Origin: Antedon mediterranea
Taxonomy: Eukaryota > Animalia > Echinodermata
Reading direction: 5' to 3'
Assembly: GCF_964355755.1 (NCBI RefSeq)
Contig: NC_092673.1
Span: 3,720,001-3,784,000, forward strand
DNA length: 64,000 nt
How positions within the stretch are numbered: position 1 is the first letter of the stretch; each line of letters begins with the position of its first letter. Shown in pieces: positions 612 to 46,100 of the stretch. The translations under genes were made by a program, and so were the position numbers. The notes below the pieces were generated by a model. It searched no databases and was not told the DNA's origin. It saw nothing but the letters and a program-made list of their open reading frames with translations.

Positions 612-917
612 TGAGTGAGTGGCCGAGTGGTTAAGACAGTGGAACCGTAATTACGTAGCCATAACATTGGCAGGGGTTCGAGGCTCACTCGACTCCATGG
701 TTCTGGTGGTAGAACGAGTCTTCTCGGATAAGGACTATAAACCGTAGGTCCAGAGTACACATCTAGCTTGTGTGCACTTTAAAGAACCTAGTACATCTTT
801 CGAGACGCGTAGGGGGTTACCCTGGCGTATTAGTACATCACAGCCACTGTTCACCAACTGAGCCCTCTGGGAGACCAGTCTTTGATTGAAGGGAGGTTAC
901 CCAGTATAAATATATAT
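612..917 (+). mobile_element. tRNA-derived SINE, apparently full length
   Basis: A-box-like TGGCCGAGTGG (620-630), B-box-like GGTTCGAGGC (675-684), a non-tRNA body and an AT-rich tail. The body recurs inverted at ~18478-18684. Confidence 0.75.
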
Positions 918-1101
918 TTCAATCAATAATTTGTTTCTCCGGACATCTTCTCCAATTTCATAGCTTTTTTTGCAAATATCAAGAAAACACAGTGAATGCA
1001 TGCCGAACACATAGATATGTATTTGTATATATTTGTGTGTGAGAAATACAAAGAACACAAAGTATTTAAATGTCCTAATCGATATAAATTCATCTTCATA
1101 G

Positions 1102-22600: not shown

Positions 22601-22859
22601 AATTGATATGAATAACCTAACAGTTGGCGATGACGTTGAAATCCAAATGAATGTAATACAGGGCAGTATTTTAGATAGTGTAGACATATTCTATATCTGT
22701 ACTACATGTGGAAAGATTTACTGGGAGGGAAGACATTTCTCAAATGTTTTGGAACAGTATGCACATATTCTTCATAGAGGATCTGATGAGGAGGGCAGCG
22801 CACATGGAATGTTCCAGCATGATGATGATGATAGCATTGAAGGTGGCCTAGTGTTTTAA
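10641..22859 (+). CDS. EXD3: Exonuclease mut-7 homolog / EXD3 (DEDDy 3'-5' exonuclease plus Mut7-C domain), 16 coding exons
   Basis: Phase-consistent exons 10641-10937, 11083-11259, 11865-11918, 12393-12532, 13026-13197, 16742-16938, 17754-17922, 18021-18082, 18282-18412, 18735-18844, 19006-19168, 19797-19981, 20148-20297, 20658-20711, 20837-20965 and 22266-22859. Motifs: ExoI IGIDMEWKP, ExoII GIRNDL, EQMSNWECRPL...YAALDA (ExoIII), Mut7-C VVCDTMLQGLGRQLRSCGVD, and Zn-ribbon SRCQMCN...CTTCGKIYWEGRH. Confidence 0.93.
11308..11437. mobile_element. MITE family C (TIR AGCTCTGTCTACACTATCAAACT), first of about 11 copies
   Basis: Related copies at ~12200-12363, 16570-16688, 19608-19742, 42357-42525, 44186-44333, 48183-48340, 48937-49185, 53866-53979, 54405-54525 and 59597-59704. 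Full copies are typically flanked TAA...TTA. Confidence 0.8.
12070..12150 (+). other. Partial duplicate (pseudo-exon) of EXD3 exon 4 with an intact acceptor
   Basis: TTTATCGCAG|GTGGTTAAACCTCTAGTCTTG encodes VVKPLVLLDKLNLAETYLK, against VIVPLVLQDKLNLAEAYLK in the true exon. The frame reaches TAA at 12148-12150. Confidence 0.8.
13564..15071. mobile_element. Kolobok-like non-autonomous DNA transposon, 1.5 kb, in EXD3 intron 5
   Basis: TTAA|AGATGTATTGTCCCTT...AAGGGACAATACATCT|TTAA. Same TIR as 1713-2058; no long ORF inside. Confidence 0.75.
15638..16063. repeat. Tandem repeat, 85-bp unit, about 4.7 copies, probably inside a degraded mobile element
   Basis: CACGTGTATTTATCGTGCGAGCCGAACTATTG... 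recurs every 85 bp, matching ORF starts 15652, 15737 and 15822. Confidence 0.9.
18478..18684 (-). mobile_element. 5'-truncated copy of the SINE at 612-917
   Basis: Reverse complement of ~700-912 (GACTCGTTCTACCACCAGAACCA, GATGTACTAGGTTCTTTAAAGTGC, AAAGACTGGTCTCCC). Confidence 0.8.
21010..22228. repeat. Minisatellite, 22-bp unit TAGTCTTCCAATCCAGT(A/G)CTAC, about 54 copies, filling the last EXD3 intron
   Basis: Directly visible tandem array. Confidence 0.95.
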
Positions 22860-23500
22860 ATACTATGATAATCTAGTCTTTTATATTATGAATAACTGTA
22901 TTTCTTGAATAAAATATATGTGTATTGTTCATTTTGTGTTTGTTACAGTACAGTATACCTACCACCAAGATTACTTTATATAGCAGCCTCTACGCAATTT
23001 GATTACATATTTTGGCGCTATTGTTGGTCACAAGCTAGTGGACATGCAGCAGTGTTGAAAAACTGTTCATTAAAAATTCAACAGCAAATAAAAACAAAAT
23101 TGGTAAATCTTAACCCTAGCAGCAATCTCAAATATCTCATTAGTCCGCAAGATGTTGCATAGTTTAACATAAAAATGAAATGAGTCTGTATGTTTTGCAC
23201 CTTCGGCACTCCACATGTTTACTTTTAAATAGAAAGCAATATTTTAGTAATAGCACCCTCTATGGTCTGGTGTAATTTTTTTAAATGTTGTAGCACCACC
23301 CTCTATAGTTTTGACACGTTTTCACAAAACTTCCCAATTAACCATCACATTCGCTTGTGTCAAGCTAGCCAACAATAAGCCAGCCAACAATAAGCCAGCC
23401 CACTTTTATTTTTTCCAGCCAACAATAACTATGAAACGCCGTTTGTGCATTCTTTACATTTTCATTGTTACTTATGGCTTTTATGGTATTAGGAATTAAA

Positions 23501-26500
23501 TATTTGTGAGAAAAACGGCGGATTGTTCCTGGGATTCACTAGGTGGGATTATACTAGGGTACCCCCTTAGTCGTCCAGTATAAGTTAGAGTGGGACCAAT
23601 GGTCCCGTTTACTCAGCCCTCATCTTTAAAATTTGAGTGTAACTCAATTACAATTTTTAAAATATAGTTAAATTTGAAACTGTATTTGTGAGAAAATGGC
23701 GGATTGTTCCTGGGAGTCACTTGGTGGGATTAAACTAGGGTACCCCCTTAGTCGTCCAGTATAAGTTAGAGTGCGACCACTGGTCCCGTTTACTCAGCCC
23801 TCATCTTTAAAATTTGAGTGTAACTCAATTACAATTTTTAAAATATAGTTAAATTTGAAACTGTATTGGTGAGAAAATGGCGGATTGTTCCTGGGAGTCA
23901 CTTGGTGGGATTATACTAGGATACCTCCTTAGTCGTACACTATAAGTTAGAGTGGGACCACTGGTACTATTTACTCAGCCCTCATCTTTTAAATTTGAGT
24001 GTAACTCATTTACGATATAAAAAATATAGTGAAATTTGATACTGTATTTGTGAGAAAATGGCGGATTGTTCCTGGGAGTCACTTGGTGGGATTATACTAG
24101 GGTACCTCCTTAGTTGTCCAGTATAAGTTAGAGTGGGACCACTGGTCCCGTTTACTCAGCCCTCATCTTTAACATTTGAGTGTAACTCATTTACGATTTT
24201 TAAAATATAGTGAAATTTGATACTGTATTTGTGAGAAAACGGCGGATTGTTCCTGAGAGTCACTTGGTGGGATTATACTAGGGTGCCTCCTTAGTAGTCC
24301 AGTATAAGTTAGAGTGGGACCACTGGTCCCGTTTACTCAGCCCTCATCTTTTAAATTTGAGTGTAACTCATTTACGATTTAAAAAATATAGTGAAATTAG
24401 ATACTGTATTTGTGAGAAAACGGCGGATTGTTCCTGGGAGTCACATGGTGGCATTATACTAAGGTACGCCCTTAGTCGTCCAGTATAAGTTAGAGTGCGA
24501 CCACTGGTTCCGTTTACTCAGCCCTCATCTTTTAAATTTGAGTGTAACTCAATTGCGGTAAACATTTTTAAAATATAGTGAAAATTGATACTGTATTTGT
24601 GAGAAAATGGCGGATTTTTCCTTGGAGTCACTTGGTGGGATTATACTAGGGTACCTCCTTAGTTGTCCAGTAGAAGTTAGAGTGGGACCACTGGTCCCGT
24701 TTACTCAGCCCTCATCTTTAACGTTTGAGGGTAACTCAATTACGATTAATATTTTAAAATATAGTGAAATTTGATACTGTATTTGTGAGAAAATGGCGGA
24801 TTGTTCCCGAGAGTCACTTGGTGGGATTATACTAGGGTACCTCCTTAGTTGTCCAGTTTAAGTTAGAGTGGGACCACTGGTCCCGTTTACTCAGCCCTTA
24901 TCTTTAAAATTTGAGTGTAACTCATTTACGATTAATATTTTAAAATATAGTGAAATTTGATACTGTATTTGTGAGAAAATGGCGGATTGTTCCTGGGAGC
25001 CACTTGGTGGGATTATACTAGGGTACCCCCTTAGTTGTCCAGTATAAGTTAGAGTGGGACCACTGGTCCCGTTTACTCAGCCCTCATCTTTAAAATTTGA
25101 GTGTAACTCATTTACGATTTTAAAAATATAGTGAAATTTGATACTGTATTTGTGAGAAAACGGCGGATTGTTCCTGGGAGTCACATGGTGGCATTATACT
25201 AAGGTACGTCCTTAGTCGTCCAGTAGAAGTTAGAGTGGGACCACTGGTCCCGTTTACTCAGCCCTCATCTTTAACATTTGAGTGTAACTCAATTACGATT
25301 AATATTTTAAAATATAGTGAAATTTGATACTGTATTTGTGAGAAAATGGCGGATTGTTCCCGAGAGTCACTTGGTGGGATTATACTAGGGTACCTCCTTA
25401 GTTGTCCAGTTTAAGTTAGAGTGGGACCACTGGTCCCGTTTACTCCGCCCTTATCTTTAAAATTTGAGTGTAACTCAATTACGGTAAAACATTTTAAAAT
25501 ATAGTGAAAATTGATACTGTAATTGTGAGAAAATGGCGGATTGTTCCTGGGAGCCACTTGGTGAGATTATACTAGGGTACCCCCTTAGTTGTGCAGTATA
25601 AGTTAGAGTGGGACCACGGGTCCCGTTTACTCAGCCCTCATCTTTAAAATTTGAGTGTAACTCATTTACGATTTTTAAAATATAGTAAAATTTGAAACTG
25701 TATTTGTGAGAAAACGGCGGATTGTTCTTGAGAGTCACTTGGTGGGATTATATTAGGGTACCTCCTTAGTTGTCCAGTATAAGTTAGAGTGGGACCACTG
25801 GTCCCGTTTACTCAGCCCTCATCTTTAAAATTTGAGTGTAACTCATTTACGATTTTAAAAATATAGTGAAATTTGATACTGTATTTGTGAGAAAACGGCG
25901 GATTGTTCCTGGGAGTCACATGGTGGCATTATACTAAGGTACGTCCTTAGTCGTCCAGTATAAGTTAGAGTGCGACCACTGGTTCCGTTTACTCAGCCCT
26001 CATGTTTTAAATTTAAGTGTAACTCAATTACTGTAAAAAATTTTAAAATATAGTGAAAATTGATACTGTATTTGTGAGAAAATGGCGGATTGTTCCTTGG
26101 ATTCACTTGGTGGGATTATACTAAGGTACCTCCTTAGTTGTCCAGTAGAAGTTAGAGTGGGACCACTGGTCCCGTTTACTCAGCCCTCATCTTTAACGTT
26201 TGAGTGTAACTCAATTACGATTAATATTTTAAAATATAGTGAAATTTGATACTGTATTTGTGAGAAAATGGCGGATTGTTCCTGGGAGTCACTTGGTGGG
26301 ATTATACTAGGGTACCTCCTTAGTTGTCCAGTATAAGTTAGAGTGGGACCACTGGTCCCGTTTACTCAGCCCTCATCTTTAACATTTGAGTGTAACTCAT
26401 TTACGATTTTTAAAATATAGTGAAATTTGATACTGTATTTGTGAGAAAACGGCGGATTGTTCCTGAGAGTCACTTGGTGGGATTATACTAGGGTGACTCC

Positions 26501-29500
26501 TTAGTAGTCCAGTATAAGTTAGAGTGGGACCACTGGTCCCGTTTACTCAGCCCTCATCTTTTAAATTTGAGTGTAACTCATTTACGATTTTAAAAATATA
26601 GTGAAATTAGATACTGTATTTGTGAGAAAACGGCGGATTGTTCCTGGGAGTCACATGGTGGCATTATACTAAGGTACGCCCTTAGTCGTCCAGTATAAGT
26701 TAGAGTGCGACCACTGGTTCCGTTTACTCAGCCCTCATCTTTTAAATTTGAGTGTAACTCAATTACGGTAAAAAATTTTAAAATATAGTGAAAATTGATA
26801 CTGTATTTGTGAGAAAATGGCGGATTGTTCCTTGGAGTCACTTGGTGGGATTATACTAGGGTACCTCCTTAGTTGTCCAGTAGAAGTTAGAGTGGGACCA
26901 CTGGTCCCGTTTACTCAGCCCTCATCTTTAACGTTTGAGGGTAACTCAATTACGATTAATATTTTAAAATATAGTGAAATTTGATACTGTATTTGTGAGA
27001 AAATGGCGGATTGTTCCCGAGAGTCACTTGGTGGGATTATACTAGGGTACCTCTTTAGTTGTCCAGTTTAAGTTAGAGTGGGACCACTGGTCCCGTTTAC
27101 TCAGCCCTAATCTTTAAAATTTGAGTGTAACTCATTTACGATTAATATTTTAAAATATAGTGAAATTTGATACTGTATTTGTGAGAAAATGGCAGATTGT
27201 TCCTGGGAGCCAATTGGTGGGATTATACTAGGGTACCCCCTTAGTTGTGCAGTATAAGTTAGAGTGGGACCACTGGTTCCGTTTACTCAGGCCTCATCTT
27301 TAAAATTTGAGTGTAACTCATTTACGATTTTTAAAATATAGTAAAATTTGAAACTGTATTTGTGAGAAAACGGCGGATTGTTCCTGAGAGTCACTTGGTG
27401 GGATTATACTAAGGTACCTCTTTAGTTGTCCAGTATAAGTTAGAGTGGGACCACTGGTCCCGTTTACTCAGCCCTCATCCTTAAAATTTGAGTGTAACTC
27501 ATTTACGATTTTAAAAATATAGTGAAATTTGATACTGTATTTGTGAGAAAACGGCGGATTGTTCCTGGGAGTCACATGGTGGAATTATACTAAGGTACGT
27601 CCTTAGTCGTCCAGTAGAAGTTAGAGTGGGACCACTGGTCCCGTTTACTCAGCCCTCATCTTTAACGTTTGAGTGTAACTCAATTACGATTAATATTTTA
27701 AAATATAGTGAAATTTGATACTGTATTTGTGAGAAAATGGCGGATTGTTCCCGAGAGTCACTTGGTGGGATTATACTAGGGTACCTCCTTAGTTGTCCAG
27801 TTTAAGTTAGAGTGGGACCACTGGTCCCGTTTACTCAGCCCTTATCTTTAAAATTTGAGTGTAACTCAATTACGGTAAAACATTTTAAAATATAGTGAAA
27901 ATTGATACTGTATTTGTGAGAAAATGGCGGATTTTTCCTTGGAGTCACTTGGTGGGATTATACTAGGGTACCTCCTTAGTTGTCCAGTAGAAGTTAGAGT
28001 AGGACCACTGGTCCCGTTTACTCAGCCTTCATCTTTAACGTTTGAGTGTAACTCAATTACGATTAATATTGTAAAATATAGTGAAATTTGATACTGTATT
28101 TGTGAGAAAATGGCGGATTGTTCCCGAGAGTCACTTGGTGGGATTATATTAAGGTACCTCCTTAGTTGTCCAGTATAAGTTAGAGTGGGACCACTGGTCC
28201 CGTTTACTCAGCCCTCATCTTTAACATTTGAGTGTAACTCATTTACGATTTTTAAAATATAGTGAAATTTGATACTGTATTTGTGAGAAAACGGCGGATT
28301 GTTCCTGAGAGTCACTTGGTGGGATTATACTAGGGTGACTCCTTAGTAGTCCAGTATAAGTTAGAGTGGGACCACTGGTCCCGTTTACTCAGCCCTCATC
28401 TTTTAAATTTGAGTGTAACTCATTTACGATTTTAAAAATATAGTGAAATTAGATACTGTATTTGTGAGAAAACGGCGGATTGTTCCTGGGAGTCACATGG
28501 TGGCATTATACTAAGGTACGCCCTTAGTCGTCCAGTATAAGTTAGAGTGCGACCACTGGTTCCGTTTACTCAGCCCTCATCTTTTAAATTTGAGTGTAAC
28601 TCAATTACGGTAAAAATTTTTAAAATATAGTGAAAATTGATACTGTATTTGTGAGAAAATGGCGGATTGTTCCTTGGAGTCACTTGGTGGGATTATACTA
28701 GGGTACCTCCTTAGTTGTCCAGTAGAAGTTAGAGTGGGACCACTGGTCCCGTTTACTCAGCCCTCATCTTTAACGTTTGAGGGTAACTCAATTACGATTA
28801 ATATTTTAAAATATAGTGAAATTTGATACTGTATTTGTGAGAAAATGGCGGATTGTTCCCGAGAGTCACTTGGTGGGATTATACTAGGGTACCTCTTTAG
28901 TTGTCCAGTTTAAGTTAGAGTGGGACCACTGGTCCCGTTTACTCAGCCCTAATCTTTAACATTTGAGTGTAACTCATTTACGATTAATATTTTAAAATGT
29001 AGTGAAATTTGATACTGTATTTGTGAGAAAATGGCAGATTGTTCCTGGGAGCCAATTGGTGGGATTATACTAGGGTACCCCCTTAGTTGTGCAGTATAAG
29101 TTAGAGTGGGACCACTGGTTCCGTTTACTCAGGCCTCATCTTTAAAATTTGAGTGTAACTCATTTACGATTTTTAAAATATAGTAAAATTTGAAACTGTA
29201 TTTGTGAGAAAACGGCGGATTGTTCCTGAGAGTCACTTGGTGGGATTATACTAAGGTACCTCCTTAGTTGTCCAGTATAAGTTAGAGTGGGACCACTGGT
29301 CCCGTTTACTCAGCCCTCATCCTTAAAATTTGAGTGTAACTCATTTACGATTTTAAAAATATAGTGAAATTTGATACTGTATTTGTGAGAAAACGGCGGA
29401 TTGTTCCTGGGAGTCACATGGTGGAATTATACTAAGGTACGTCCTTAGTCGTCCAGTAGAAGTTAGAGTGGGACCACTGGTCCCATTTACTCAGCCCTCA

Positions 29501-32144
29501 TCTTTAACGTTTGAGTGTAACTCAATTACGATTAATATTTTAAAATATAGTGAAATTTGATACTGTATTTGTGAGAAAATGGCGGATTGTTCCCGAGAGT
29601 CACTTGGTGGGATTATACTAGGGTACCTCCTTAGTTGTCCAGTTTAAGTTAGAGTGGGACCACTGGTCCCGTTTACTCAGCCCTTATCTTTAAAATTTGA
29701 GTGTAACTCAATTACGGTAAAACATTTTAAAATATAGTGAAAATTGATACTGTATTTGTGAGAAAATGGCGGATTTTTCCTTGGAGTCACTTGGTGGGAT
29801 TATACTAGGGTACCTCCTTAGTTGTCCAGTAGAAGTTAGAGTAGGACCACTGGTCCCGTTTACTCAGCCCTCATCTTTAACGTTTGAGTGTAACTCAATT
29901 ACGATTAATATTGTAAAATATAGTGAAATTTGATACTGTATTTGTGAGAAAATGGCGGATTGTTCCCGAGAGTCACTTGGTGGGATTATACTAAGGTACC
30001 TCCTTAGTTGTCCAGTTTAAGTTAGAGTGGGACCACTGGTTCCGTTTACTCAGCCCTTATCTTTAAAATTTGAGTGTAATTCATTTACGATTAATATTTT
30101 AAAATATAGTGAAAGTTGATACTGTATTTGTGAGAAAATGGCGGATTGTTCCTGGGAGCCACTTGGTGAGATTATACTAGGGTACCCCCTTAGTTGTGCA
30201 GTATAAGTTAGAGTGGGACCACTGGTCCCGTTTACTCAGCCCTCATCTTTAAAATTTGAGTGTAACTCATTTACGATTTTTAAAATATAGTAAAATTTGA
30301 AACTGTATTTGTGAGAAAACGGCGGATTGTTCCTGAAAGTCACTTGGTGGGATTATACTAGGGTACCTCCTTAGTTGTCCAGTATAAGTTAGAGTGGGAC
30401 CACTGGTCCCGTTTACTCAGCCCTCATCTTTAAAATTTGAGTGTAACTCATTTACGATTTTAAAAATATAGTGAAATTTGATACTGTATTTGTGAGAAAA
30501 CGGCGGATTGTTCCTGGGAGTCACATGGTGGCATTATACTAAGGTACGTCCTTAGTCGTCCAGTATAAGTTAGAATGCGACCACTGGTTCCGTTTACTCA
30601 GCCCTCATGTTTTAAATTTGAGTGTAACTCAATTACTGTAAAAAATTTTAAAATATAGTGAAAATTGATACTGTATTTGTGAGAAAATGGCGGATTGTTC
30701 CTTGGAGTCACTTGGTGGGATTATACTAGGGTACCTCCTTAGTTGTCCAGTAGAAGTTAGAGTGGGACCACACTGGTCCCGTTTATTCAGCCCTCATCTT
30801 TAACGTTTGAGTGTAACTCAATTACGATTAATATTGTAAAATATAGTGAAATTTGATACTGTATTTGTGAGAAAATGGCGGATTGTTCCCGAGAGTCACT
30901 TGGTGGGATTATACTAGGGTACCTCCTTAGTGGTCCAGTTTAAGTTAGAGTGGGACCACTGGTCCCGTTTACTCAGCCCTTATCTTTAAAATTTGAGTGT
31001 AACTCATTTACGATTAATATTTTAAAATATAGTGAAATTTGATACTGTATTTGTGAGAAAATGGCGGATTGTTCCTGGGAGCCACTTGGTGGGATTATAC
31101 TAGGGTACCCTCTTAGTTGTGCAGTATAAGTTAGAGTGGGACCACTGGTCCCGTTTACTCAGCCCTCATCTTTAAAATTTGAGTGTAACTCATTTACGAT
31201 TTTTAAAATATAGTAAAATTTGAAACTGTATTTGTGAGAAAACGGCGGATTGTTCCTGAGAGTCACTTGGTGGGATTATACTAGGGTACCTCCTTAGTTG
31301 TCCAGTATAAGTTAGAGTGGGACCACTGGTCCCGTTTACTCAGCCCTCATCTTTAAAATTTGAGTGTAACTAATTTACGATTTTAAAAATATAGTGAAAT
31401 TTGATACTGTATTTGTGAGAAAACGGCGGATTGTTCCTGGGAGTCAAATGGTGGCATTATACTAAGGTACGTCCTTAGTCGTCCAGTATAAGTTGGAGTG
31501 CGACCACTGGTTCCGTTTACTCAGCCCTCATCTTTTAAATTTGAGTGTAACTCAATTACGGTAAAAAAATTTAAAATATAGTGAAAATTGATACTGTATT
31601 TGTGAGAAAATGGCGGATTGTTCCTTGGAGTCACTTGGTGGAATTATACTAGGGTACCTCCTTAGTTGTCCAGTAGAAGTTAGAGTGGGACCACTGGTCC
31701 CGTTTACTCAGCCCTCATCTTTAAAATTTGAGTGTAACTCATTTACGATTTTTAAAATATAGTAAAATTTGAAACTGTATTTGTGAGAAAACGGCGGATT
31801 GTTCCTGAGAGTCACTTGGTGGGATTATAGTAGGGTACCTCCTTAGTTGTCCAGTATAAGTTAGAGTGGGACCACTGGTCCCGTTTACTCAGCCCTCATC
31901 TTTAAAATTTGAGTGTAACTCATTTACGATTTTTAAAATATAGTGAAATTTGATACTGTATTTGTGAGAAAACGGCGGATTGTTCCTGAAAGTCACTTGG
32001 TGGGATTATACTAGGGTACCCCCTTAGTCGTCCAGTATAAGTTAGAGTGGGACCACTGGTCCCGTTTACTCAGCCCTCATCTTTAAAATTTGAGTGTAAC
32101 TCATTTACGATTTTTAAAATATAGTTTAGAGTGGGACCACTGGT
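23501..32144 (+). repeat. Left satellite arm: about 47 tandem 181-186-bp monomers
   Basis: GTGAGAAAA at 23506, 23688 and 23869 gives a 181-182-bp period. The variant CACATGG recurs every 4-6 monomers, and there is a 1842-bp (10-mer) duplication (CAATT at 27211 and 29053). Confidence 0.95.
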
Positions 32145-35100
32145 ACAAATTTCACTATATTTTATTTTTTTTATTTTTTTTATTTATTAATTTAAAAGAT
32201 GAGGGCTGAGTAAACGGAACAAGTGGTACCACTCTAACTTTTACTGGACGACCAAGGAGGTACCCTAGTACAATCCCACCAAGTGACTCTCAGGAACAAT
32301 CCGCCATTTTTTCACAAATACAGTTTCAAATTTCACTATATTTTAAAAATCGTAAATGAGTTACACTCAAATTTTAAAAATGAGGGCTGAGTAAACGGGA
32401 CCAGTGGTCCCACTCTAACTTATACTGGACGACTAAGTGGGTACCCAAGTATAATCCCACCAAGTGACTCCCAGGAACAATCCGCCATTTTCTCACAAAT
32501 ACAGTATCAAATTTCACTATATTTTTAAAATCGTAAATGAGTTACACTCAAATTTTAAAGATGAGGGCTGAGTAAACCGGACCAGTGGTCCCACTCTAAC
32601 TTATACTGGACGACTAAGGGGGTACCCTAGTATAATCCCACCAAGTGACTGCCAGGAACAATCCGCCATTTTCTCACAAATACAGTATCAAATTTAACTA
32701 TATTTTAAAATATTAATCGTAATTGAGTTACACTCAAATTTTAAAGATAAGGGCTGAGTAAACGGGACCAGTGGTCCCACTCTAACTTAAACTGGACAAC
32801 TAAGGAGGTACCCTAGTATAATCCCACCAAGTGACTCCCAGGAACAATCCGCCATTTTCTCACAAATACAGTATCAATTTTCACTATATTTTAAATGTTT
32901 TTATCGTAATTGAGTTACACTCAAATTTAAAAGATGAGGGCTGAGTAAACGGAACCAGTGGTCGCATTCTAACTTATACTGGACGACTAAGGACGTACCT
33001 TAGAGTATTATCCCACCATGTGACTCCCAGGAAAAATCCGCCGTTTTCTCACAAATACAGTATCTAATTTCTCTATATTTTTAAAATCGTAAATGAGTTA
33101 CACTCTAATTTAAAAGATGAGGGCTGAGTAAACGGGAACAGTGGTCCCACTCTAACTTCTACTGGACGACTAAGGAGGCACCCTAGTATAATCCCACCAA
33201 GTGACTCTCAGGAACAATCCGCCGTTTTCTCACAAATACAGTATCAAATTTTACTATATTTTAAAAATCGTAAATGAGTTACACTCAAATTTAAAAGATG
33301 AGGGCTGAGTAAACGGGACCAGTGGTCCCACTCTAACTTATACTGGACGACTAAGGGGGTACCCTAGTATAATCCCACCAAGTGACTCTAAGGAACAATC
33401 CGCCGTTTTCTCACAAATACAGTATCAAATTTCACTATATTTTAAAAATCGTAAATGAGTTACACTCATATTTTTAAGATGAGGGCTGAGTAAACGGGAC
33501 CAGTGGTCCCACTCTAACTTATACTGGACAACTAAGAAGGTACCCTACTATAATCCCACAAAGTGACTCCCAGGAACAATCCGCCATTTTCTCACAAATA
33601 CAGTATCAAATTTCACTATATTTTTAAAAATCGTAAATGAGTTACACTCAAATTTTAAAGATGAGGGCTTAGTAAACGGGACCAGTGGTCCCACTATAAC
33701 TTATACTGGACGGCTAAGGGTACGGTGTACCCTAGTATAATCCCACCAAGTGACTCTCAGGAACAATCCGCCGTTTTCTCACAAATACAGTTTCAAATTT
33801 CACTATAATTTAAAAATCGTAAATGAGTTACACTCAAATTTTAAAGATGAGGGCTGAGTAAACGGGACAAGTGGTCCCACTCTAACTTATACTGGACGAC
33901 TAAGGGGGTACCCTAGTATAATCCCACCAAGTGACTCCAAGGAACAATCCGCCATTTTCTCACAAATACAGTATCAAATTTCACTATATTTTAAAAATCG
34001 TAAATGAGTTACACTCAAATTTTAAAGATGAGGGCTGAGTAAACCGGACCAGTGGTCCCACTCTAACTTATACTGGACGACTAAGGAGGTACCCTAGTAT
34101 AATCCCACCAAGTGACTCCCAGGAACAATCCGCCATTTTCTCACAAATACAGTATCAATTTTCACTATATTTTAAATTTTTTAATCGTAATTGAGTTACA
34201 CTCAAATTTAAAAGATGAGGGCTGAGTAAACGGAACCAGTGGTCGCACTCTAACTTATACTGGACGACCAAGGACGTACCTTAGTATAATCCCACCATGT
34301 GACTCCCAGGAAAAATCCGCCGTTTTCTCACAAATACAGTATCTAATTTCTCTATATTTTTAAAATCGTAAATGAGTTACACTCAAATTTAAAAGATGAG
34401 GGCTGAGTAAACGGGACCAGTGGTCCCACTCTAACTTCTACTGGACGACTAAGGAGGCACCCTAGTATAATCCCACCAAGTGACTCTCAGGAACAATCCG
34501 CCGTTTTCTCACAAATACAGTATCAAATTTTACTATATTTTAAAAATCGTAAATGAGTTACACTCAAATTTAAAAGATGAAGGCTGAGTAAACGGGACCA
34601 GTGGTCCCACTCTAACTTATACTGGACGACTAAGGGGGTACCCTAGTATAATCCCACCAAGTGACTCTAAGGAACAATCCGCCGTTTTCTCACAAATACA
34701 GTATCAAATTTCACTATATTTTAAAAATCGTAAATGAGTTACACTCAAATTTTAAAGATGAGGGCTGAGTAAACGGGACCAGTGGTCCCACTCTAACTTA
34801 TACTGGATAACTAAGAAGGTACCCTAGTATAATCCCACAAAGTGACTCCCAGGAACAATCCGCCATTTTCTCACAAATACAGTATCAAATTTCACTATAT
34901 TTTTTAAAATCGTAAATGAGTTACACTCAAATTTTAAAGATGAGGGCTTAGTAAACGGGACCAGTGGTCCCACTATAACTTATACTGGACGACTAAGGGT
35001 ACGGTGTACCCTAGTATAATCCCACCAAGTGACTCTCAGGAACAATCCGCCGTTTTCTCACAAATACAGTTTCAAATTTCACTATATTTTAAAAATCGTA

Positions 35101-38100
35101 AATGAGTTACACTCAAATTTTAAAGATGAGGGCTTAGTAAACGGGACCAGTGGTCCCACTATAACTTATACTGGACGACTAAAGGGGTACCCTAGTATAA
35201 TCCCACCAAGTGACTCCAAGGAACAATCCGCCATTTTCTCACAAATACAGTATCAAATTTCACTATATTTTAAAAATCGTAAATGAGTTACACTCAAATT
35301 TTAAAGATGAGGGCTGAGTAAACCGGACCAGTGGTCCCACTCTAACTAATACTGGACGACTAAGGAGGTACCCTAGTATAATCCCACCAAGTGACTCCCA
35401 GGAACAATCCGCCGTTTTCTCACAAATACAGTATCAAATTTCACTATATTTTAAAATATTAATCGTAATTGAGTTACACTAAAAAACTTTAAAGATGAGG
35501 GCTGAGTAAACGGAACCAGTGGTCGCACTCTAACTTAAACTGGACGACTAAGGACGTACCCTAGTATAATCCCACCAAGTGACTCCCAGGAACAATCCGC
35601 CATTTTCTCACAAATACAGTATCAATTTTCACTATATTTTAAAAATGTTATCGTAATTGAGTTACACTCAAATTTAAAAGATGAGGGCTGAGTAAACGGG
35701 ACCAGTGGTCCCACTCTAACTTATAGTGGACGGATATTGAGGTTCCCTAGTATAATCCCACCAAGTGACTCCCAGGAACAATCCGCCATTTTCTTACAAA
35801 TACAGTATCAAATTTCACTATATTTTAAAATATTAATCGTAAGTGAGTTAAACTCAAATTTAAAAGATGAGGGCTGAGTAAACGGGACCAGTGGTCCAAC
35901 TCTAACTTTACTGGACCACTAAGGAGGTACCCTAGTATAATCCCACCAAGTGACTCCCAGGAACAATCGGCCATTTTCTCACAAATACAGTATCAAATTT
36001 CACTATATTTTAAAATATTAATCGTAATTGAGTTACACTCAAATTTAAGAGATGACGGTTTAGTAAACGGGGCCAGTGGTCCCACTCTAACTTATACTGG
36101 ACGACTAATGACGTACCCTAGTATAATCCCACCATGTGACTCCCAGAAACAATCCGCCGTTTTCTCACAAATACAGTATCAAATTTCACTATTTTTTTAA
36201 AATCGTAAATGAGTTACACTCAAATTTAAAAGATGAGGGCTTAGAGTAAACGGGACCAGTGGTCCCACTTTAACTTATACTGGACGACTAAGGGGGTACC
36301 CTAGTATAATCCCACCAAATGACTCTCAGGAACAATCCGCCGTTTTCTCACAAATACAGTATCAAATTTCACTATATTTTTAAAATCGTAAATGAGTTAC
36401 ACTCAAATTTTAAAGATGAGGGCTGAGTAAACCGGACCAGTGGTCCCACTCTAACTTATACTGGACGACTAAGGGGGTACCCTAGTATAATCCCACCAAG
36501 TGACTGCCAGGAACAATCCGCCATTTTCTCACAAATACAGTATCAAATTTAACTATATTTTAAAATATTAATCGTAATTGAGTTACACTCAAATTTTAAA
36601 GATAAGGGCTGAGTAAACGGGACCAGTGGTCCCACTCTAACTTAAACTGGACAACTAAGGAGGTACCCTAGTATAATCCCACCAAGTGACTCCCAGGAAC
36701 AATCCGCCATTTTCTCACAAATACAGTATCAATTTTCACTATATTTTAAATGTTTTTATCGTAATTGAGTTACACTCAAATTTAAAAGATGAGGGCTGAG
36801 TAAACGGAACCAGTGGTCGCATTCTAACTTATACTGGACGACTAAGGACGTACCTTAGAGTATTATCCCACCATGTGACTCCCAGGAAAAATCCGCCGTT
36901 TTCTCACAAATACAGTATCTAATTTCTCTATATTTTTAAAATCGTAAATGAGTTACACTCTAATTTAAAAGATGAGGGCTGAGTAAACGGGAACAGTGGT
37001 CCCACTCTAACTTCTACTGGACGACTAAGGAGGCACCCTAGTATAATCCCACCAAGTGACTCTCAGGAACAATCCGCCGTTTTCTCACAAATACAGTATC
37101 AAATTTTACTATATTTTAAAAATCGTAAATGAGTTACACTCAAATTTAAAAGATGAGGGCTGAGTAAACGGGACCAGTGGTCCCACTCTAACTTATACTG
37201 GACGACTAAGGGGGTACCCTAGTATAATCCCACCAAGTGACTCTAAGGAACAATCCGCCGTTTTCTCACAAATACAGTATCAAATTTCACTATATTTTAA
37301 AAATCGTAAATGAGTTACACTCATATTTTTAAGATGAGGGCTGAGTAAACGGGACCAGTGGTCCCACTCTAACTTATACTGGACAACTAAGAAGGTACCC
37401 TACTATAATCCCACAAAGTGACTCCCAGGAACAATCCGCCATTTTCTCACAAATACAGTATCAAATTTCACTATATTTTTAAAAATCGTAAATGAGTTAC
37501 ACTCAAATTTTAAAGATGAGGGCTTAGTAAACGGGACCAGTGGTCCCACTATAACTTATACTGGACGGCTAAGGGTACGGTGTACCCTAGTATAATCCCA
37601 CCAAGTGACTCTCAGGAACAATCCGCCGTTTTCTCACAAATACAGTTTCAAATTTCACTATAATTTAAAAATCGTAAATGAGTTACACTCAAATTTTAAA
37701 GATGAGGGCTGAGTAAACGGGACAAGTGGTCCCACTCTAACTTATACTGGACGACTAAGGGGGTACCCTAGTATAATCCCACCAAGTGACTCCAAGGAAC
37801 AATCCGCCATTTTCTCACAAATACAGTATCAAATTTCACTATATTTTAAAAATCGTAAATGAGTTACACTCAAATTTTAAAGATGAGGGCTGAGTAAACC
37901 GGACCAGTGGTCCCACTCTAACTTATACTGGACGACTAAGGAGGTACCCTAGTATAATCCCACCAAGTGACTCCCAGGAACAATCCGCCATTTTCTCACA
38001 AATACAGTATCAATTTTCACTATATTTTAAATTTTTTAATCGTAATTGAGTTACACTCAAATTTAAAAGATGAGGGCTGAGTAAACGGAACCAGTGGTCG

Positions 38101-40936
38101 CACTCTAACTTATACTGGACGACCAAGGACGTACCTTAGTATAATCCCACCATGTGACTCCCAGGAAAAATCCGCCGTTTTCTCACAAATACAGTATCTA
38201 ATTTCTCTATATTTTTAAAATCGTAAATGAGTTACACTCAAATTTAAAAGATGAGGGCTGAGTAAACGGGACCAGTGGTCCCACTCTAACTTCTACTGGA
38301 CGACTAAGGAGGCACCCTAGTATAATCCCACCAAGTGACTCTCAGGAACAATCCGCCGTTTTCTCACAAATACAGTATCAAATTTTACTATATTTTAAAA
38401 ATCGTAAATGAGTTACACTCAAATTTAAAAGATGAAGGCTGAGTAAACGGGACCAGTGGTCCCACTCTAACTTATACTGGACGACTAAGGGGGTACCCTA
38501 GTATAATCCCACCAAGTGACTCTAAGGAACAATCCGCCGTTTTCTCACAAATACAGTATCAAATTTCACTATATTTTAAAAATCGTAAATGAGTTACACT
38601 CAAATTTTAAAGATGAGGGCTGAGTAAACGGGACCAGTGGTCCCACTCTAACTTATACTGGATAACTAAGAAGGTACCCTAGTATAATCCCACAAAGTGA
38701 CTCCCAGGAACAATCCGCCATTTTCTCACAAATACAGTATCAAATTTCACTATATTTTTTAAAATCGTAAATGAGTTACACTCAAATTTTAAAGATGAGG
38801 GCTTAGTAAACGGGACCAGTGGTCCCACTATAACTTATACTGGACGACTAAGGGTACGGTGTACCCTAGTATAATCCCACCAAGTGACTCTCAGGAACAA
38901 TCCGCCGTTTTCTCACAAATACAGTTTCAAATTTCACTATATTTTAAAAATCGTAAATGAGTTACACTCAAATTTTAAAGATGAGGGCTTAGTAAACGGG
39001 ACCAGTGGTCCCACTATAACTTATACTGGACGACTAAAGGGGTACCCTAGTATAATCCCACCAAGTGACTCCAAGGAACAATCCGCCATTTTCTCACAAA
39101 TACAGTATCAAATTTCACTATATTTTAAAAATCGTAAATGAGTTACACTCAAATTTTAAAGATGAGGGCTGAGTAAACCGGACCAGTGGTCCCACTCTAA
39201 CTAATACTGGACGACTAAGGAGGTACCCTAGTATAATCCCACCAAGTGACTCCCAGGAACAATCCGCCGTTTTCTCACAAATACAGTATCAAATTTCACT
39301 ATATTTTAAAATATTAATCGTAATTGAGTTACACTAAAAAACTTTAAAGATGAGGGCTGAGTAAACGGAACCAGTGGTCGCACTCTAACTTAAACTGGAC
39401 GACTAAGGACGTACCCTAGTATAATCCCACCAAGTGACTCCCAGGAACAATCCGCCATTTTCTCACAAATACAGTATCAATTTTCACTATATTTTAAAAA
39501 TGTTATCGTAATTGAGTTACACTCAAATTTAAAAGATGAGGGCTGAGTAAACGGGACCAGTGGTCCCACTCTAACTTATAGTGGACGGATATTGAGGTTC
39601 CCTAGTATAATCCCACCAAGTGACTCCCAGGAACAATCCGCCATTTTCTTACAAATACAGTATCAAATTTCACTATATTTTAAAATATTAATCGTAAGTG
39701 AGTTAAACTCAAATTTAAAAGATGAGGGCTGAGTAAACGGGACCAGTGGTCCAACTCTAACTTTACTGGACCACTAAGGAGGTACCCTAGTATAATCCCA
39801 CCAAGTGACTCCCAGGAACAATCGGCCATTTTCTCACAAATACAGTATCAAATTTCACTATATTTTAAAATATTAATCGTAATTGAGTTACACTCAAATT
39901 TAAGAGATGACGGTTTAGTAAACGGGGCCAGTGGTCCCACTCTAACTTATACTGGACGACTAATGACGTACCCTAGTATAATCCCACCATGTGACTCCCA
40001 GAAACAATCCGCCGTTTTCTCACAAATACAGTATCAAATTTCACTATTTTTTTAAAATCGTAAATGAGTTACACTCAAATTTAAAAGATGAGGGCTTAGA
40101 GTAAACGGGACCAGTGGTCCCACTTTAACTTATACTGGACGACTAAGGGGGTACCCTAGTATAATCCCACCAAATGACTCTCAGGAACAATCCGCCGTTT
40201 TCTCACAAATACAGTATCAAATTTCACTATATTTTTAAAATCGTAAATGAGTTACACTCAAATTTTAAAGATGAGGGCTGAGTTAACGGGACCAGTGGTC
40301 CCACTCTAACTTATACTGGACAACTAAGGAGGTACCCTAGTATAATCCCACCAAGTGACTCCCAGGAACAATCCGCCATTTTTTCACAAATACAGTATCA
40401 AATTTCACTATATTTTTTAAATCGTAAATGAGTTACACTCAAATTTAAAAGATAAGGGCTGAGTAAACTATACCAGTGGTCCCACTCTAACTTTTCCTGT
40501 ACGACTTAGGAGGCACCCTAGTATAATCCCACCAAGTGACTCTCAGGAACAATCCGCCATTTTCTCACCAATACAGTTTCAAATTTAACTATATTTTAGA
40601 AATTGTAATTGAGTTACACTCAAATTTTAAAGATGAGGGCTGAGTAAACGAGACCAGTGGTCGCACTCTAACTTATACTGGACGACTAAGGGGGTACCCT
40701 AGTATAATCCCACCAAGTGACTCCCAGGAACAATCCGCCATTTTCTCACAAATACAGTTTCAAATTTAACTATATTTTAAAAATCATAATTGAGTAACAC
40801 TCAAATTTTAAAGATGAGGGCTGAGTAAACGGGACCATTGGTCCCACTCTAACTTATACTGGACGACTAAGGGGGTACCCTAGTATAATCCCACCAAGTG
40901 AATCCCAGGAACAATCTGCCGTTTTTCTCACAAATA
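32145..40936 (-). repeat. Right satellite arm: about 48 monomers in the opposite orientation
   Basis: Reverse complement of the left monomer, with a 1279-bp (7-mer) period (TACGGTG at 33721 and 35000) and a 3855-bp tandem duplication. Confidence 0.95.
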
Positions 40937-43156
40937 TTTAATTCCTAATACCATAAAAGCCATAAGTAACAATGAAAATGTAAAGAATGCACAAACGGCG
41001 TTTCATAGTTATTGTTGGCTGGAAAAAATAAAAGTGGGCTGGCTTATTGTTGGCTGGCTTATTGTTGGCTAGCTTGACACAAGCATTACATTCATCATAT
41101 TCACAACAAAAGTGTACATGGTTTGTTTTTTTTATCAATCACAAAAGTCCATTAGAGGGCGATATATCGCTAAACAAATTGGAGGGCGCTACATAGATTT
41201 TTAATCATCCCACAATATTTATTGTGGACAGCAGCAGTTTGCAATAACTTTTTTTTCAGTAGGGCCTACAACATCTAGGCCCAGAAATAATTTTAAAATA
41301 CTAAGCCTAGGCTATACTCACCTAGTCTCTAGAGGCCCTATAGTGTAGTAGTTCCGTGATATGATAGAGGCAACAAAGCCTAATAAGGTCGGCAGGCAGG
41401 GCTGGCACCTTACGTACAGACTTGTTAACTAAATTAGGCTAATACTGTAATAAATGTCCACAAAAGAAGGCTGGATTGAGTATATTAATAATTTTTGTAG
41501 TAATCCACGACAGTAGAAATTTCGCCACATATAATAAACTAATTATCGATTTAAAAACAAAGCCACATCTCACAGAGCAGACGATCGATGAACGTGTGTG
41601 TGTGTGTGTGACGAGTACCACCATCGCGTGTGCGCGTAATAAGTGCTGGACGTTTACGCGCACCACTTAAGTACTGTATGTCGCACTCAGGGCTAAGTCA
41701 GATACAATAGCGGTCAATTTCGTACGCAATATTAAAATTAAAAACATTCTTCACAAGTTGCTTTCCACTTTTCAGTGCATTTACTATTGACAAGAGATAT
41801 AATATATTTTTATAATAATTTACATCCTTTCCTATAAGTATAACATTTTGGCAATCAGCAGTAGATTGAGATAGGATATGCGATATAACAGAGTTATTGT
41901 ATTATATGATGATTAAACTATGAAAATAGTTCATTTTAATTCAATATTCCCTTCCAACTACTGTAGCTTGATAATTTTATAACAAATGTTGTTGGTTTAT
42001 CCTGAAAAAAAGCAAGTTGTAGTAATTTTAATTTATTAGAGCAAACAGCACCCTCTATAATTCCAACAATAATTTTGATAGTTTAGTATCGTTCAAGATA
42101 AATTGATGTTTTTAATCAATTAAGGCAATTAACATGCCATATAACTATAATTAATGTTTTGTACCCAAGTAAACCATGTGCACTTCTTGAAATAAAAAGG
42201 TAAGGTATTTTACACCATTAAAAAAAACTTGCTAAACATTTGTCCTCATCTAACACCCTTCTATTCCAACATGAGGAAAACTAGAATTGCATACTAGGTG
42301 CAACACTGTAGGCTAAAGGATGGTTCTGAAACTATGGATGAACAGTTTATTGCCTAAAGCTCTATCTACACTATCAAACTAGTTTGACCAAAAAAGTGTG
42401 ATGTGTCCAAATATGGTAGAGATATACCCAAATATGGTAGTTATATTACATCATCATATCCATATGGGCATGTAGGCACATTGTTTTGTAAATTTGTAAC
42501 AAAGTTTTATAGTGTAGACAGAGCTTTAGCCACAACTATTTAAATGTGTGAAAAGACTATAGAGTGTGCATGTTACCAAGAAACAACAATTTGAAAGTGG
42601 AGGGAATATTTTAAATTCTGTAGTCTATGGATGATATGCTATACTGAACATACAACTATTATTAAACAATTATTAAATGCATAAGAAAAATTATTTATAT
42701 TTTTCATAATTACTAGTAACCTTTGAAGGTCAAATATTATGATATTTACAATAACCTATTGAGAAATGAAAATTAAGAATAAAAACACCCAAACTTGAAC
42801 GCATACTAGTAATTCTTCACATTCACTAGCTGTAAAGAATCGCATCTCTACCAATCAATTGAAAAGTTTTTGACCAGTTCCTTTTGCCGATTTAAGTACA
42901 ACTTCACAATTTCCAGTAGCCGATAAATGTTCACAATTTTCATTTTTCAACGTCAAAGTTAAGCACTCGTTCAATGGCACCACAAACCGGATTTAGCACA
43001 GGAATAAAAATTACAATCGTTACAATCATAAACAACAGTTGTACAGTGAGTTTCAACAAGACATTTACTTTACAATTGGCTAGTTACATAGTCCTAGTCT
43101 TGTCAGACTGCTGTATATATTTATAGACAATTTGGAGTCCTTATTTGGCAGTAAAA

Positions 43157-46100
43157 TCACCTAGATCCAGCTCCCATTTTGGCTATTAACTCATCACAAA
43201 TATTTGTAAGTTCTGTATTTTCTTTCGTCTGTGAAAGAACCAAAATTACAAATATTAAATTAAAAATTATAGCAAACATATATTTCATATATTTAATTGT
43301 TCTATTATAATACCGTTTTCACTTATAAAAAGACAAAATAAACAGTAAAATTCAACAAAAAACCCATTGACCTCCAGTCAATTTGACTATTTTTTGCAAT
43401 CAATTACAGTTTTTTCAAGTAAATAATTTGTTTGCGATCCAACTTTTTATCAAGGTAAATAACTAATATGTGAATATGTATATTTTATATTATTATTATT
43501 TCTTAAGGGAGACAATACATATTTAACTAGAATACATACCTTCTGTTCAATAGTTTTTTCCTGACTTGCTGATTTCATCTGTTCTCGTTTCATTCCAGCT
43601 TGTAGTCCAGTTATCTCCGCTATATAGCTTTTCTTTACCTTATCTATTTCGGCATTTGCCCTATATCACAAGACAATACAAAATTACTATTATTGAAAGG
43701 CATATGCGATGTGATTTGTGATTTATGCAGAATCAAGAATAATCACATTTAGTACGAGGCAGTGACACTAGGTATGAGTGAGGGCGTATATTCTCTACAA
43801 CGTACAACACCCTCACGCATCAACAATAAATTTATCAAAATATACTGTATGCCAACAGCTAAGCGGACATCAGATTTTAGTACCATTAAAATACACAAAA
43901 TAGACTCACACCAAGTCATAATTTGTAACTACCAATGAATAAAAGTTAATTTTATAAAAATACAGTTACTACTGTACTTACTTCTCTATTTTTTCTTCAG
44001 CATGTGATTTCAGCGTTTGGTACCGGTTTTCTTGTTTTTTTACTTTTGTTTGATAGTCCGATACACACTTTTTCAAAATTTCTTCATTCTGAAATGACAT
44101 ATGACTGCATTGTCACTTTTTTTTTTCAAATTTTAAATATTTCAGGAGAAAGTTAATTGTTTAACAACCTAAAAACTATGCCTAAAGCTCTGTCTACACT
44201 ATCAAACTAGTTTGACCAAAAAAGTGCCCAAATATGGTAGTGATATACCCAAATATGGTGGTGATATGACATCATCATGTCCATATATGGGGACATCATA
44301 TTTTTTTGTCACAAAGTTTGATAGTGCAGACAAGATGCGTCTCATCAGCTTTTAACTCGGACAACAACGACCATTCAAGACGACATGCCTCGTCGTACGA
44401 TGCTGTAATAGGCCTTAATAGTAGTTGGCCTTAATATTACTTACCTTTTTATAACCTTCAATGGTATTCCTGAGTTTTTCATATCTCTTGTGTAAGTCAC
44501 TGAAAGCATTCTCTACAGACGCCAAATCGTCCAAGGCTTGTTCTTTCTCTCGTTGAAGTTCTTCAAATTTTCCCTCAGATGAGTTTTTATGATGATTCAT
44601 ATCACCTATGAATAAAAACCATGATGATATTAAAATAAAGGCCAAAATAAAAAAATAGCTTGTTTCAGGTCGAGCGCCCGGATAGATTTTTTTTCAGAAT
44701 AATCTGACTGGAAATTTGGTGGGCCAAAAATCAACAGGAAACAAACATTCTTTTTTAGGTTGGCCTAATATATAGTACAGTATAACCCTTCCTTTAGGAT
44801 TTAGGACACCTCTATTAAGGGAGACTTTGCAGTAGCAATATTTGTTAACACTACAAACAACCATTCAGAGGACACCACTATTAAGGGGACACTTTCCCAG
44901 GATACAAAGGAGTTTTTAATCTATATTAATATGCAAATGCAGTCAAATAGCAGGTCTATAGGGTCACCACATGTCACCCTAGGTAGTGAATCACAGACCT
45001 ACCAACTGTACTGGCTTAAGAACACACAAAAAGATAGAAAACCAACATAAGTTAAATACATTACCCATCATTTGCTGTATTGTACGCTCATATTCAGTAA
45101 CCAATGCCCTACAAAACACAAACATAATTATAAACATTAAATAAAATTAATGATATTTACCGAAAGTCCCCTGAGCATATCGCATCATTACTTATTCTTA
45201 TTACGTTCACCATGATTCTAAATTTTTTGTAAGATTTAGCATTTCCCAATTCTTTTTTTTTCATTTGAGATGCAAGAATGAAACCCATTAAATAAACTTT
45301 TGGTTTTTTGACATGTCTGTATGGAATCATGGGTCAAAGGTCAAACTTACTTCAAATCTGAGTTAGTTTTATCCGAAGTCTCTTTTTCTCTTACAACTGC
45401 CTCATATTTCTGTTGCTGTTCTAGCATTCGTTTCTCCATTTCTTTCTGCACTTGATGTCTAGCTTTTCTTACCACTGTATCCATCTCTGTCTGGGAGTAT
45501 TTAAGCAGCTGAAAAGAGACACATATATTATCCAAACAACAGTGAAATAAATGTCATTGGCAGGGCTAAGCAAGTACCTTAACAAGATACTATTCAAGGA
45601 CCAATTGAGAGAGCTAACTATGTACCGTTGCAAGGGCTAAGCAAACTACATAAAAAGGTACCATGCAAGGGCCAATTACTGTACTGTTACGAGAGCTAAA
45701 TAAATACCATTGCAAGGACCAAGCAAATTTCATAAAAAGGTACCATACAAGTGCCAATTACTGTAAGTACCGTTACGAGAGCTAGTACCATTGCAAGGGC
45801 CAAGCAAATTTCATAAAAAGGTACCATACAAGTGCCAATTACTGTAAGTGCCGTTATGAGAACTAAATAAGTACCATTGCAAGGGCCAAGTAAATTTCAT
45901 AAAAAGGTACCATGCAAGTGCCAATTACTGTAAGTACCGTTACGAGAGCTAAATAAGTACCATTGCAAGGGCCAAGAAAGTTTCTTGTAAAATGTAAGGG
46001 TTAAAAAATTGCAATTATGAGGGCTAAATAAGTATGAGTGCAAAGGCTAAGTAACTATCATTGTGAGGGCTAAGTGAGTATCAGTGTGAGGGTTAAATAA

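What the first reader, a model, noticed from the sequence alone, without database searches (positions are those of the whole stretch)
23344..41093. 17.7-kb satellite-filled palindromic transposon (giant foldback MULE-like element)
Seen: ~150-bp unique TIRs that appear identical, each with a tandem 15-bp subrepeat AGCCAACAATAAGCC (two copies plus a partial). The termini are G...C and the 9-bp TSD matches at 8/9. The interior is about 95 monomers of 181-186 bp in two inverted arms of ~8.8 and ~8.9 kb, with no coding sequence. Known: 9-bp TSDs with long, internally repetitive TIRs typify Mutator-superfamily foldback elements such as Drosophila FB, whose arms are usually much shorter. Inference: a mobile carrier and nursery of satellite DNA with both ends and the TSD still readable, possibly an undescribed family moved in trans.
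Basis: partly seen in the sequence, partly recalled or inferred. Interest (0 to 1): 0.85.

Follow-up and report, generated by a model that had tools for sequence, protein, structure and literature searches.

The report
Satellite-armed foldback transposon in feather star
This is a real 17.7-kb insertion made of two inverted blocks of a 181-base tandem repeat between identical ends, missing from a second version of the same site; it is likely a gene-less cut-and-paste jumping element of a kind already described in flies and beetles, whose repeat arms probably grew after it landed.

Summary
The anatomy is confirmed. The element spans 23353-41084 (17,732 bp): ends identical for 167 bp, a 9-bp target duplication matching 8 of 9, 47+48 monomers in two inverted arms, no gene. 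The host is inferred to be a crinoid. Public contigs show the same site without the element in one sample of this species (with 30 bp beside the target also missing) and in two samples of a related organism, and show the same end joined to other flanks. So it is a real insertion of a dispersed family. The arms are not mirror images: each has its own duplications, and the two largest look younger than the insertion, so movement at 17.7 kb is not shown. The ends resemble the MULE Muta1 (terminal palindrome plus short subrepeats). The architecture is described: Drosophila Tetris, and Tribolium Rehavkus-like elements with up to 50 repeats or >11-kb arms. This scan noted two similar elements in other genomes. 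No transposase was found, so the superfamily is inferred. Verdict: new member of a known kind, in a host group where my searches found no report. Interest 0.33.

The parts
23344..23352 (+). Left target-site copy ATCACATTC; its third base (C) is likely the derived one
   Evidence: the right copy, the element-free haplotype in X1 and the organism-B site all have T there
23353..23365 (+). 13-bp terminal imperfect palindrome GCTTG-TGT-CAAGC, likely transposase end signal (inferred by analogy with Muta1)
   Evidence: seen directly; exact matches only at the two ends in the window; analogy PMC5499845 passages
23353..23500 (+). Left non-satellite terminal inverted repeat, 148 bp, with 2.6 copies of a 15-bp subrepeat (23362-23400)
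   Evidence: junction to other flanks at this end in X5 and X6 contigs
23501..32125 (+). Left satellite arm, about 47 monomers of 181-188 bp, including a 10-monomer (1,842-bp) duplication with 6 differences in 1,838 bp
32126..32145 (+). Central junction: about 20 bp of monomer-derived filler, no middle domain, no gene remnant
32146..40936 (-). Right satellite arm, about 48 monomers of 181-189 bp in opposite orientation; innermost monomer has an A/T-run-degenerated end; exact 21-monomer duplication (3,941 identical bases at offset 3,855; 32488 vs 36343)
40937..41084 (-). Right terminal inverted repeat, identical to the left one
   Evidence: same end joined to other flanks in X1, X5, X6 contigs
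41085..41093 (+). Right target-site copy ATTACATTC
41090..41119 (+). 30 bp (end of the target plus right flank) missing from the element-free haplotype in X1; possible excision scar
   Evidence: a homologous stretch is present in organism B

Best explanation
The stretch is an insertion with identical inverted ends, a 9-bp target duplication and two inverted arrays of a 181-bp repeat, and it is likely a non-autonomous foldback DNA transposon of the Mutator/Rehavkus type, inserted by a transposase encoded elsewhere, whose arms likely lengthened in place afterwards. Shown: ends, duplication, no gene, element-free versions of the site, the same end at other flanks, arm-specific duplications. Inferred: (1) a transposase in trans binds the terminal palindrome and 15-bp subrepeats of the outer 148 bp and inserts with a 9-bp stagger; (2) an ancestor had short repeat arrays inside both ends around a coding middle, which was lost by a deletion healed with about 20 bp of monomer-derived filler; (3) each arm then grew by block duplications of 5-21 monomers (unequal exchange or slippage), the two largest probably at this site, from 12-14 kb or less; (4) divergence between the arms (7%) and the asymmetric centre likely make the palindrome tolerable; (5) the element-free haplotype is either a never-occupied allele with a chance deletion or an imprecise loss, about even odds. 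About 0.9 for a TIR DNA transposon, 0.7 for MULE/Rehavkus.
For: Ends identical for 167 bp and 8/9 duplication, null 0.00036. One 1,683-nt contig of run X1 lies on the left flank to 23345 (record 1140) and on the right flank from 41120 (record 1147), with no element between. In organism B, 2 contigs in X6 and 2 in X7 lie on the right flank from 41106; their 115 loose letters did not lie on the element end, and the last 18 match the target region at 14 of 18 by eye. Contigs leaving the element end at 41084-41088 into other flanks: X1 3, X5 5, X6 2, X7 none among the rows shown (2 rows not shown); at the left end X6 3 and X5 1 (89 rows not shown). A 110-nt contig across the end-to-satellite junction, identical to the window, has about 40 times the flank depth in X1 (rough). 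85 of 93 monomers have their nearest neighbour in their own arm, no monomer is identical across arms, and mirror likeness holds only for monomers 1, 2 and 4. Chance of a target-copy difference within the age of the 3,855-bp duplication is at most 0.008, of the 1,842-bp one about 0.03 (upper 0.06), at equal mutation rates. MULE features 8-10 bp TSD and >100-bp TIR, Muta1 end = terminal palindrome + 12-bp repeats, both needed (PMC5499845, PMC5225508, passages); Rehavkus 9-bp TSD (PMC6446971).
Against: No transposase or remnant inside the element or among 64 reading frames scanned (63 of 72 flank frames of 70+ codons plus 1 inside), so the superfamily is untested. No second complete copy with its own paired duplication was seen; contigs show one end at a time. 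The filled right junction was not seen in X1 (depth in 41105-41129 is fully explained by the element-free contig); the filled left side is supported only by depth arithmetic (a window-type contig of depth about 4 up to 23345, tables 2 and 4). The exact 3,855-bp duplication could be an assembly error. Unlike Tetris, no likeness between end and monomer (385 of 500 shuffles score as well), so the monomer is not shown to carry transposase sites. X1 and X4 may be the sample the window was assembled from.
Confidence: 0.8

Rival explanations
1. The element moved, and may still move, as an intact unit of more than 10 kb; the arrays are inherited cargo rather than local growth.
For: Ends are identical; the site is polymorphic; about 40 identical end-to-satellite junctions per flank depth in X1 and roughly 50-95 monomers per end in organism A, like the 47-48 here (depth of contigs is no true copy number). 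Older duplications (1.5-2% diverged) may predate insertion, leaving about 12 kb. Tribolium authors infer the same for >11-kb termini.
Against: The two largest duplications look younger than the target-site mismatch; transposition efficiency falls with distance between ends (PMC6431247 passage); no second full copy seen.
Confidence: 0.3
2. Same anatomy, but the mover belongs to another TIR superfamily with 8-9 bp duplications and internal repeats (Merlin, recalled; P-type Galileo-like).
For: Foldback structure has arisen in more than one superfamily (PMC4079207 discussion); no transposase found here.
Against: 7- and 8-bp duplications fail here (1 of 7, 1 of 8); end structure fits Muta1/Muta5; satellite-armed cases in print are Rehavkus-like or suggested MULE. 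Merlin TSD length is from recall; PMC8101967 was seen only in a listing.
Confidence: 0.15
3. A plain satellite array with an inversion point (macro-dyad), or a chimera of two one-ended copies, not one inserted element.
For: Two-subarray inverted satellites of about 12 kb are common in Tribolium centromeres; arms differ copy by copy.
Against: Non-satellite 148-bp ends, matching 9-bp duplication and element-free sites whose flanks join directly; setting between two genes.
Confidence: 0.04
4. The size is partly an assembly artefact: the exact 21-monomer duplication was traversed twice and the true element is 13.9 kb.
For: 3,941 identical bases, while every other duplication in the element has differences; no read spanning it could be laid.
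Against: The copies are head to tail with distinct outer context; arrays of this kind do duplicate blocks (6 differences in the 1,842-bp block show the process is recent). This would not change the class of element.
Confidence: 0.2

Closest known systems
Rehavkus-like foldback elements of Tribolium (Rehavkus-1_TC, -3_TC; TfSat06, TfSat23, TfSat25/TCsat12), PMC12581902 (section 12 read, passages), PMC10218199 (passages), PMC6446971 (passages)
   Same: TIR plus variable subterminal satellite arrays in inverted orientation; up to 50 repeats; termini sometimes >11 kb; 9-bp TSD; short arrays in one species and long in the sister species, as the rough depth ratios suggest here (2 vs 49-95 monomers per end).
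   Different: No transposase or central part here (20-bp junction only); no sequence comparison possible; Rehavkus hosts listed as arthropods and annelids, this host is a crinoid (inferred).
Tetris of Drosophila virilis, PMC4079207 (parts 1-4 of 6 of the text read)
   Same: Non-autonomous foldback; unique flanking domain then tandem repeats (220 bp there, 181 bp here); 8-10 bp TSD; arrays expanded inside the element; relatives that share only the ends (DAIBAM there; a contig sharing the outer 68 bp here).
   Different: Complete Tetris copies have TIRs up to 1,735 bp and a middle domain; expansion is tied to beta-heterochromatin; end and repeat share 37 bp. Here arms are 8.8-8.9 kb with both ends intact, between genes, and end and monomer are unrelated.
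Muta1/Muta5 MULEs of Aedes aegypti (type 2 foldback), PMC5225508 and PMC5499845 (passages)
   Same: 145-151 bp TIR made of a short terminal motif (palindromic in Muta1) plus 12-15 bp subterminal repeats; 8-9 bp TSD; gene-less derivatives.
   Different: Nine subrepeats there, 2.6 plus a worn copy here; no satellite arms there; activity shown there, not here.
Drosophila FB and sea urchin TU foldback elements
   Same: Long modular inverted repeats; foldbacks are known from sea urchins (cited in PMC4079207).
   Different: Details are recalled only; the primary papers were not held, so no comparison was made.

Membership tests
Foldback TIR DNA transposon (structural class) | Long modular inverted repeats with internal tandem repeats | tested here: met
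Foldback TIR DNA transposon (structural class) | Target-site duplication and an empty version of the site | tested here: met
   8/9 duplication; element-free contig in X1, with a 30-bp loss, and element-free site in organism B
Foldback TIR DNA transposon (structural class) | Dispersed copies with the same end at other flanks | tested here: met
   10 contigs in 3 of 4 runs leave the end at 41084-41088 into other flanks; paired duplications at those sites not testable
MULE/Mutator superfamily | 8-11 bp TSD | tested here: met
   9 bp, 8 of 9; definition PMC6446971
MULE/Mutator superfamily | Long TIR (>100 bp), often terminal motif plus 9-15 bp subrepeats | tested here: met
   148 bp, 13-bp palindrome, 15-bp subrepeat; PMC5225508
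MULE/Mutator superfamily | MULE DDE transposase in the element or in a partner with the same ends | not testable with these tools
   none inside; no whole genome held
Rehavkus | 9-bp TSD, TIR 26-400 bp, tandem repeats inside the termini | tested here: met
   against PMC6446971 table 1 and PMC12581902
Rehavkus | Rehavkus-clade transposase with PHD finger | not testable with these tools
   this copy has no coding middle; partner unknown
Rehavkus | Sequence likeness to a named Repbase/Dfam family | not testable with these tools
   no such library offered
Tetris | Middle domain between the TIRs; repeat derived from the flanking domain | tested here: not met
   20-bp junction only; end vs monomer score no better than shuffles. 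Works like Tetris, is not Tetris
hAT (8-bp TSD) / P-type Galileo (7-bp TSD, recalled) | 8-bp or 7-bp TSD | tested here: not met
   1 of 8 and 1 of 7 match
Merlin | Merlin transposase; 8-9 bp TSD (recalled) | not testable with these tools
   duplication length is compatible; no transposase to test

The most novel reading that the evidence does not exclude
In this crinoid species nearly all of a satellite of thousands of monomers lives inside a few dozen giant, gene-less palindromic transposons with no middle at all, which still jump or excise at more than 10 kb; the element-free haplotype with its 30-bp loss is a natural excision scar, and the roughly 20-fold gain in monomers per end over the related species happened inside mobile elements in gene-rich DNA. 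It would be a living test of whether satellite growth stops a foldback element from moving.
Probability: 0.2. Interest if true: 0.6.

Novelty: new member of a known kind. Interest (0 to 1): 0.33.

Why it matters
It extends satellite-armed foldback transposons, described from flies and beetles, to an echinoderm lineage, and gives an unusually clean locus: both ends, the duplication, an element-free haplotype and a related species without the insertion. The Tetris paper leaves open whether long arrays stop transposition; a family with intact ends and 47-monomer arms could test that. A near-spacerless 17.7-kb inverted repeat between two genes is also a natural case of a tolerated giant palindrome. 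The concept itself is not new.

Tried and rejected
No whole genome is held, so no genome-wide census. Exact scans of metagenome contigs with 29 bases of the end and 29 bases of the monomer: 0 hits each. Rfam on 23300-24300: nothing at E<=1. Monomer folding is not unusual (z -0.39), so its short internal palindromes were rejected as a signal; the centre folds strongly (z -27), which follows trivially from the inverted arms. End vs monomer homology rejected. Arms as a recent mirror duplication rejected (mirror distance 0.071 beyond monomer 4, like the 0.072 between-arm mean). No RNA holder on record; X5 is only guessed to be RNA and its repeat-to-flank depth ratios resemble those of X1, so it says nothing on expression. 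Literature searches with no paper on a crinoid or echinoderm element of this kind: 2 papers, listing only; 0; 0; 14 papers, 13 listed, listing only; one term was a feather-star genus name from my recall, not an identification; on palindrome stabilisation was seen as a listing only, so that step rests on recall. FARE and sea urchin TU papers were not held. Supplements of the Tribolium and Dupeyron papers were not read and may hold closer structural matches. No Rehavkus protein was available as a query, so crinoid transposases were not searched. Earlier notes of this scan: none in this genome; the sequence look-up returned one unrelated bacterial note.
Full report
Observation. The element proper runs from 23353 to 41084 (17,732 bp). 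Its first and last 148 bp are exact reverse complements, and identity continues to 167 bp. It is flanked by ATCACATTC and ATTACATTC; of 14 lengths tried only 9 matches this well, and the chance rate of 8 of 9 in the flanks is 0.00036. Each end starts with a 13-bp imperfect palindrome found exactly only at these two places in the window, followed by 2.6 copies of a 15-bp unit. Inside lie 46.9 and 47.7 copies of a 181-bp repeat in opposite orientation; 93 whole monomers are 181-189 bp long and about 7% apart. There is no coding sequence. At the centre the arms meet through about 20 bp of monomer-derived filler, and the innermost right monomer ends in an A/T run in place of the normal sequence.

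Setting. A GPCR in the window has its best named relative in the feather star Anneissia japonica at 60% identity, the next at 35%, so the host is inferred to be a crinoid. The element lies between converging genes: an EXD3/mut-7-like gene (3'-5' exonuclease and Mut7-C domains; name recalled) whose frame ends at 22859, 494 bp away, with AATAAA signals before the element, and a TACC-like gene on the minus strand whose last frame ends near 43160. No transposase domain was found in 64 frames scanned.

The arms are not mirror images. Monomers 1, 2 and 4 from each end pair across arms (1.7-2.2% apart); beyond that mirror partners are no closer than random (0.071 vs 0.072). 85 of 93 monomers have their closest match in their own arm, and none is identical across arms. 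The right arm holds an exact 21-monomer duplication (3,941 identical bases at offset 3,855) on top of an older 7-monomer one; the left holds a 10-monomer duplication with 6 differences in 1,838 bp. The target copies already differ at one base. At equal mutation rates that is unlikely within the age of the exact duplication (at most 0.008) or of the 10-monomer one (0.03, upper 0.06). So both probably arose after insertion, or the exact one is an assembly error; removing both leaves 12.0 kb. This rests on a single mismatch and is an inference.

Outside evidence. Eleven runs hold part of the left junction region; five were laid, all as contigs. In X1 one 1,683-nt contig lies on the left flank to 23345 and resumes on the right flank at 41120 six letters later: a haplotype without the element. 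It has the T form of the target and lacks the 30 bases 41090-41119. X1 also has two contigs at 41639-41750, one identical to the window (depth 5.0) and one different (5.7), and depth arithmetic leaves a window-type contig of depth about 4 up to 23345; this fits a heterozygous insertion, but X1 may be the source sample and the filled right junction was not seen. In organism B, two contigs in each of X6 and X7 lie on the right flank from 41106; the 115 letters before did not lie on the element end, and the last 18 match the target region at 14 of 18 by eye. So the insertion and the 30-bp loss both appear derived in organism A. The loss could be an excision scar or a chance deletion: the two haplotypes differ by many small gaps, and Muta1 excises precisely in about 90% of cases when a duplication is present (PMC5225508). 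I give even odds.

A dispersed family. Contigs leave the element end at 41084-41088 into other flanks: 3 in X1, 5 in X5, 2 in X6, none shown for X7; at the left end 3 in X6 and 1 in X5. A second end variant with five or six changes makes up nearly half of the depth in X1 and most in X6. Contig depth is no copy number, but as a rough guide the identical end-to-satellite contig has about 40 times the flank depth in X1, and satellite depth per end depth is 95, 49 and 52 in three runs of organism A against 2 in the one run of organism B (ranges 15-175 and 1-14). More diverged monomers in B would be missed at the 85% cut, which would lower its figure.

Mechanism. Most likely a non-autonomous foldback transposon moved in trans. 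Its end is built like that of Muta1, where a terminal palindrome and short subrepeats are needed for binding and cleavage (PMC5499845; Muta5 has a 15-bp unit). The monomer shows no likeness to the end and no unusual folding, so there is no sign that it binds transposase; it is more likely passenger DNA that grows by block duplication. Loss of a coding middle with templated filler, and tolerance of the palindrome through arm divergence and an asymmetric centre, are inferences, the last from recalled work on palindromes.

Comparison with known elements. Tetris is the published case of a foldback element seeding a satellite (PMC4079207). Closer still, Tribolium Rehavkus-3_TC copies carry 6-8 repeats in one species and up to 50 in the other, and TfSat06 forms inverted termini sometimes >11 kb (PMC12581902). 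Rehavkus has 9-bp duplications and is listed from arthropods and annelids (PMC6446971). The element works like these; membership in MULE or Rehavkus cannot be tested without a transposase. Two unchecked notes of this scan describe 11- and 13.8-kb Rehavkus-type elements with satellite arms in other genomes; I had reached the Rehavkus lead and count them as no support. Searches found no paper on such an element in crinoids, but Repbase, Dfam and most subscription papers were out of reach.

Verdict. Real, well supported, a new member of a known kind. What is distinctive is the absence of any middle, the intact ends at this size, the polymorphic site with a possible scar, and the host group. Movement at 17.7 kb is not shown. 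Interest 0.33.

Noticed in passing
run X5 contig on window 23353-23420 / 41017-41084: A contig shares only the outer part of the end (to 23420) and continues for 255 or more letters of different sequence: a candidate sister family or coding partner. Its sequence could not be retrieved.
   Followed up: no
runs X1 and X5, loose ends before window 23468: A variant in which a motif like the terminal palindrome joins almost directly to the inner part of the end, as if about 100 bp with the 15-bp subrepeats were deleted.
   Followed up: no
run X1, loose end behind window 41078: One copy of the end is interrupted six bases short of its tip by a perfect 20-bp palindrome followed by more end-like letters.
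   Followed up: no
runs X6 and X7, window 41030-41091: In organism B a high-depth variant of the end (depth 1003 against about 50 for flanks in X7) runs on into one shared flank; perhaps the end embedded in another repeat.
   Followed up: no
window 5372-6857, also 1-116: A nest of short inverted repeats (57-184 bp, 93-99% complementary) ending in TTAA, like stacked palindromic MITEs.
   Followed up: no
window 21009-22223: 54 copies of a 22-bp minisatellite with strong GC skew just before the last exon of the EXD3-like gene.
   Followed up: no
window 12208-19740 and 42347-61077: A dispersed short element with a 21-bp subrepeat in many copies and both orientations, some folded back on themselves (19615-19740, 48179-48344).
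   Followed up: no
window 698-829 and 18553-18685: An inverted pair of about 130 bp (93-96% complementary) 17.7 kb apart, enclosing the transporter and GPCR genes; probably two copies of a dispersed repeat.
   Followed up: no
window 996-3862 (+), 7278-8345 (-), 18943-22859 (+), 43160-44693 (-): Neighbouring genes: an MFS transporter, an FFAR4-like GPCR, an EXD3/mut-7-like exonuclease and a TACC-like gene.
   Followed up: partly
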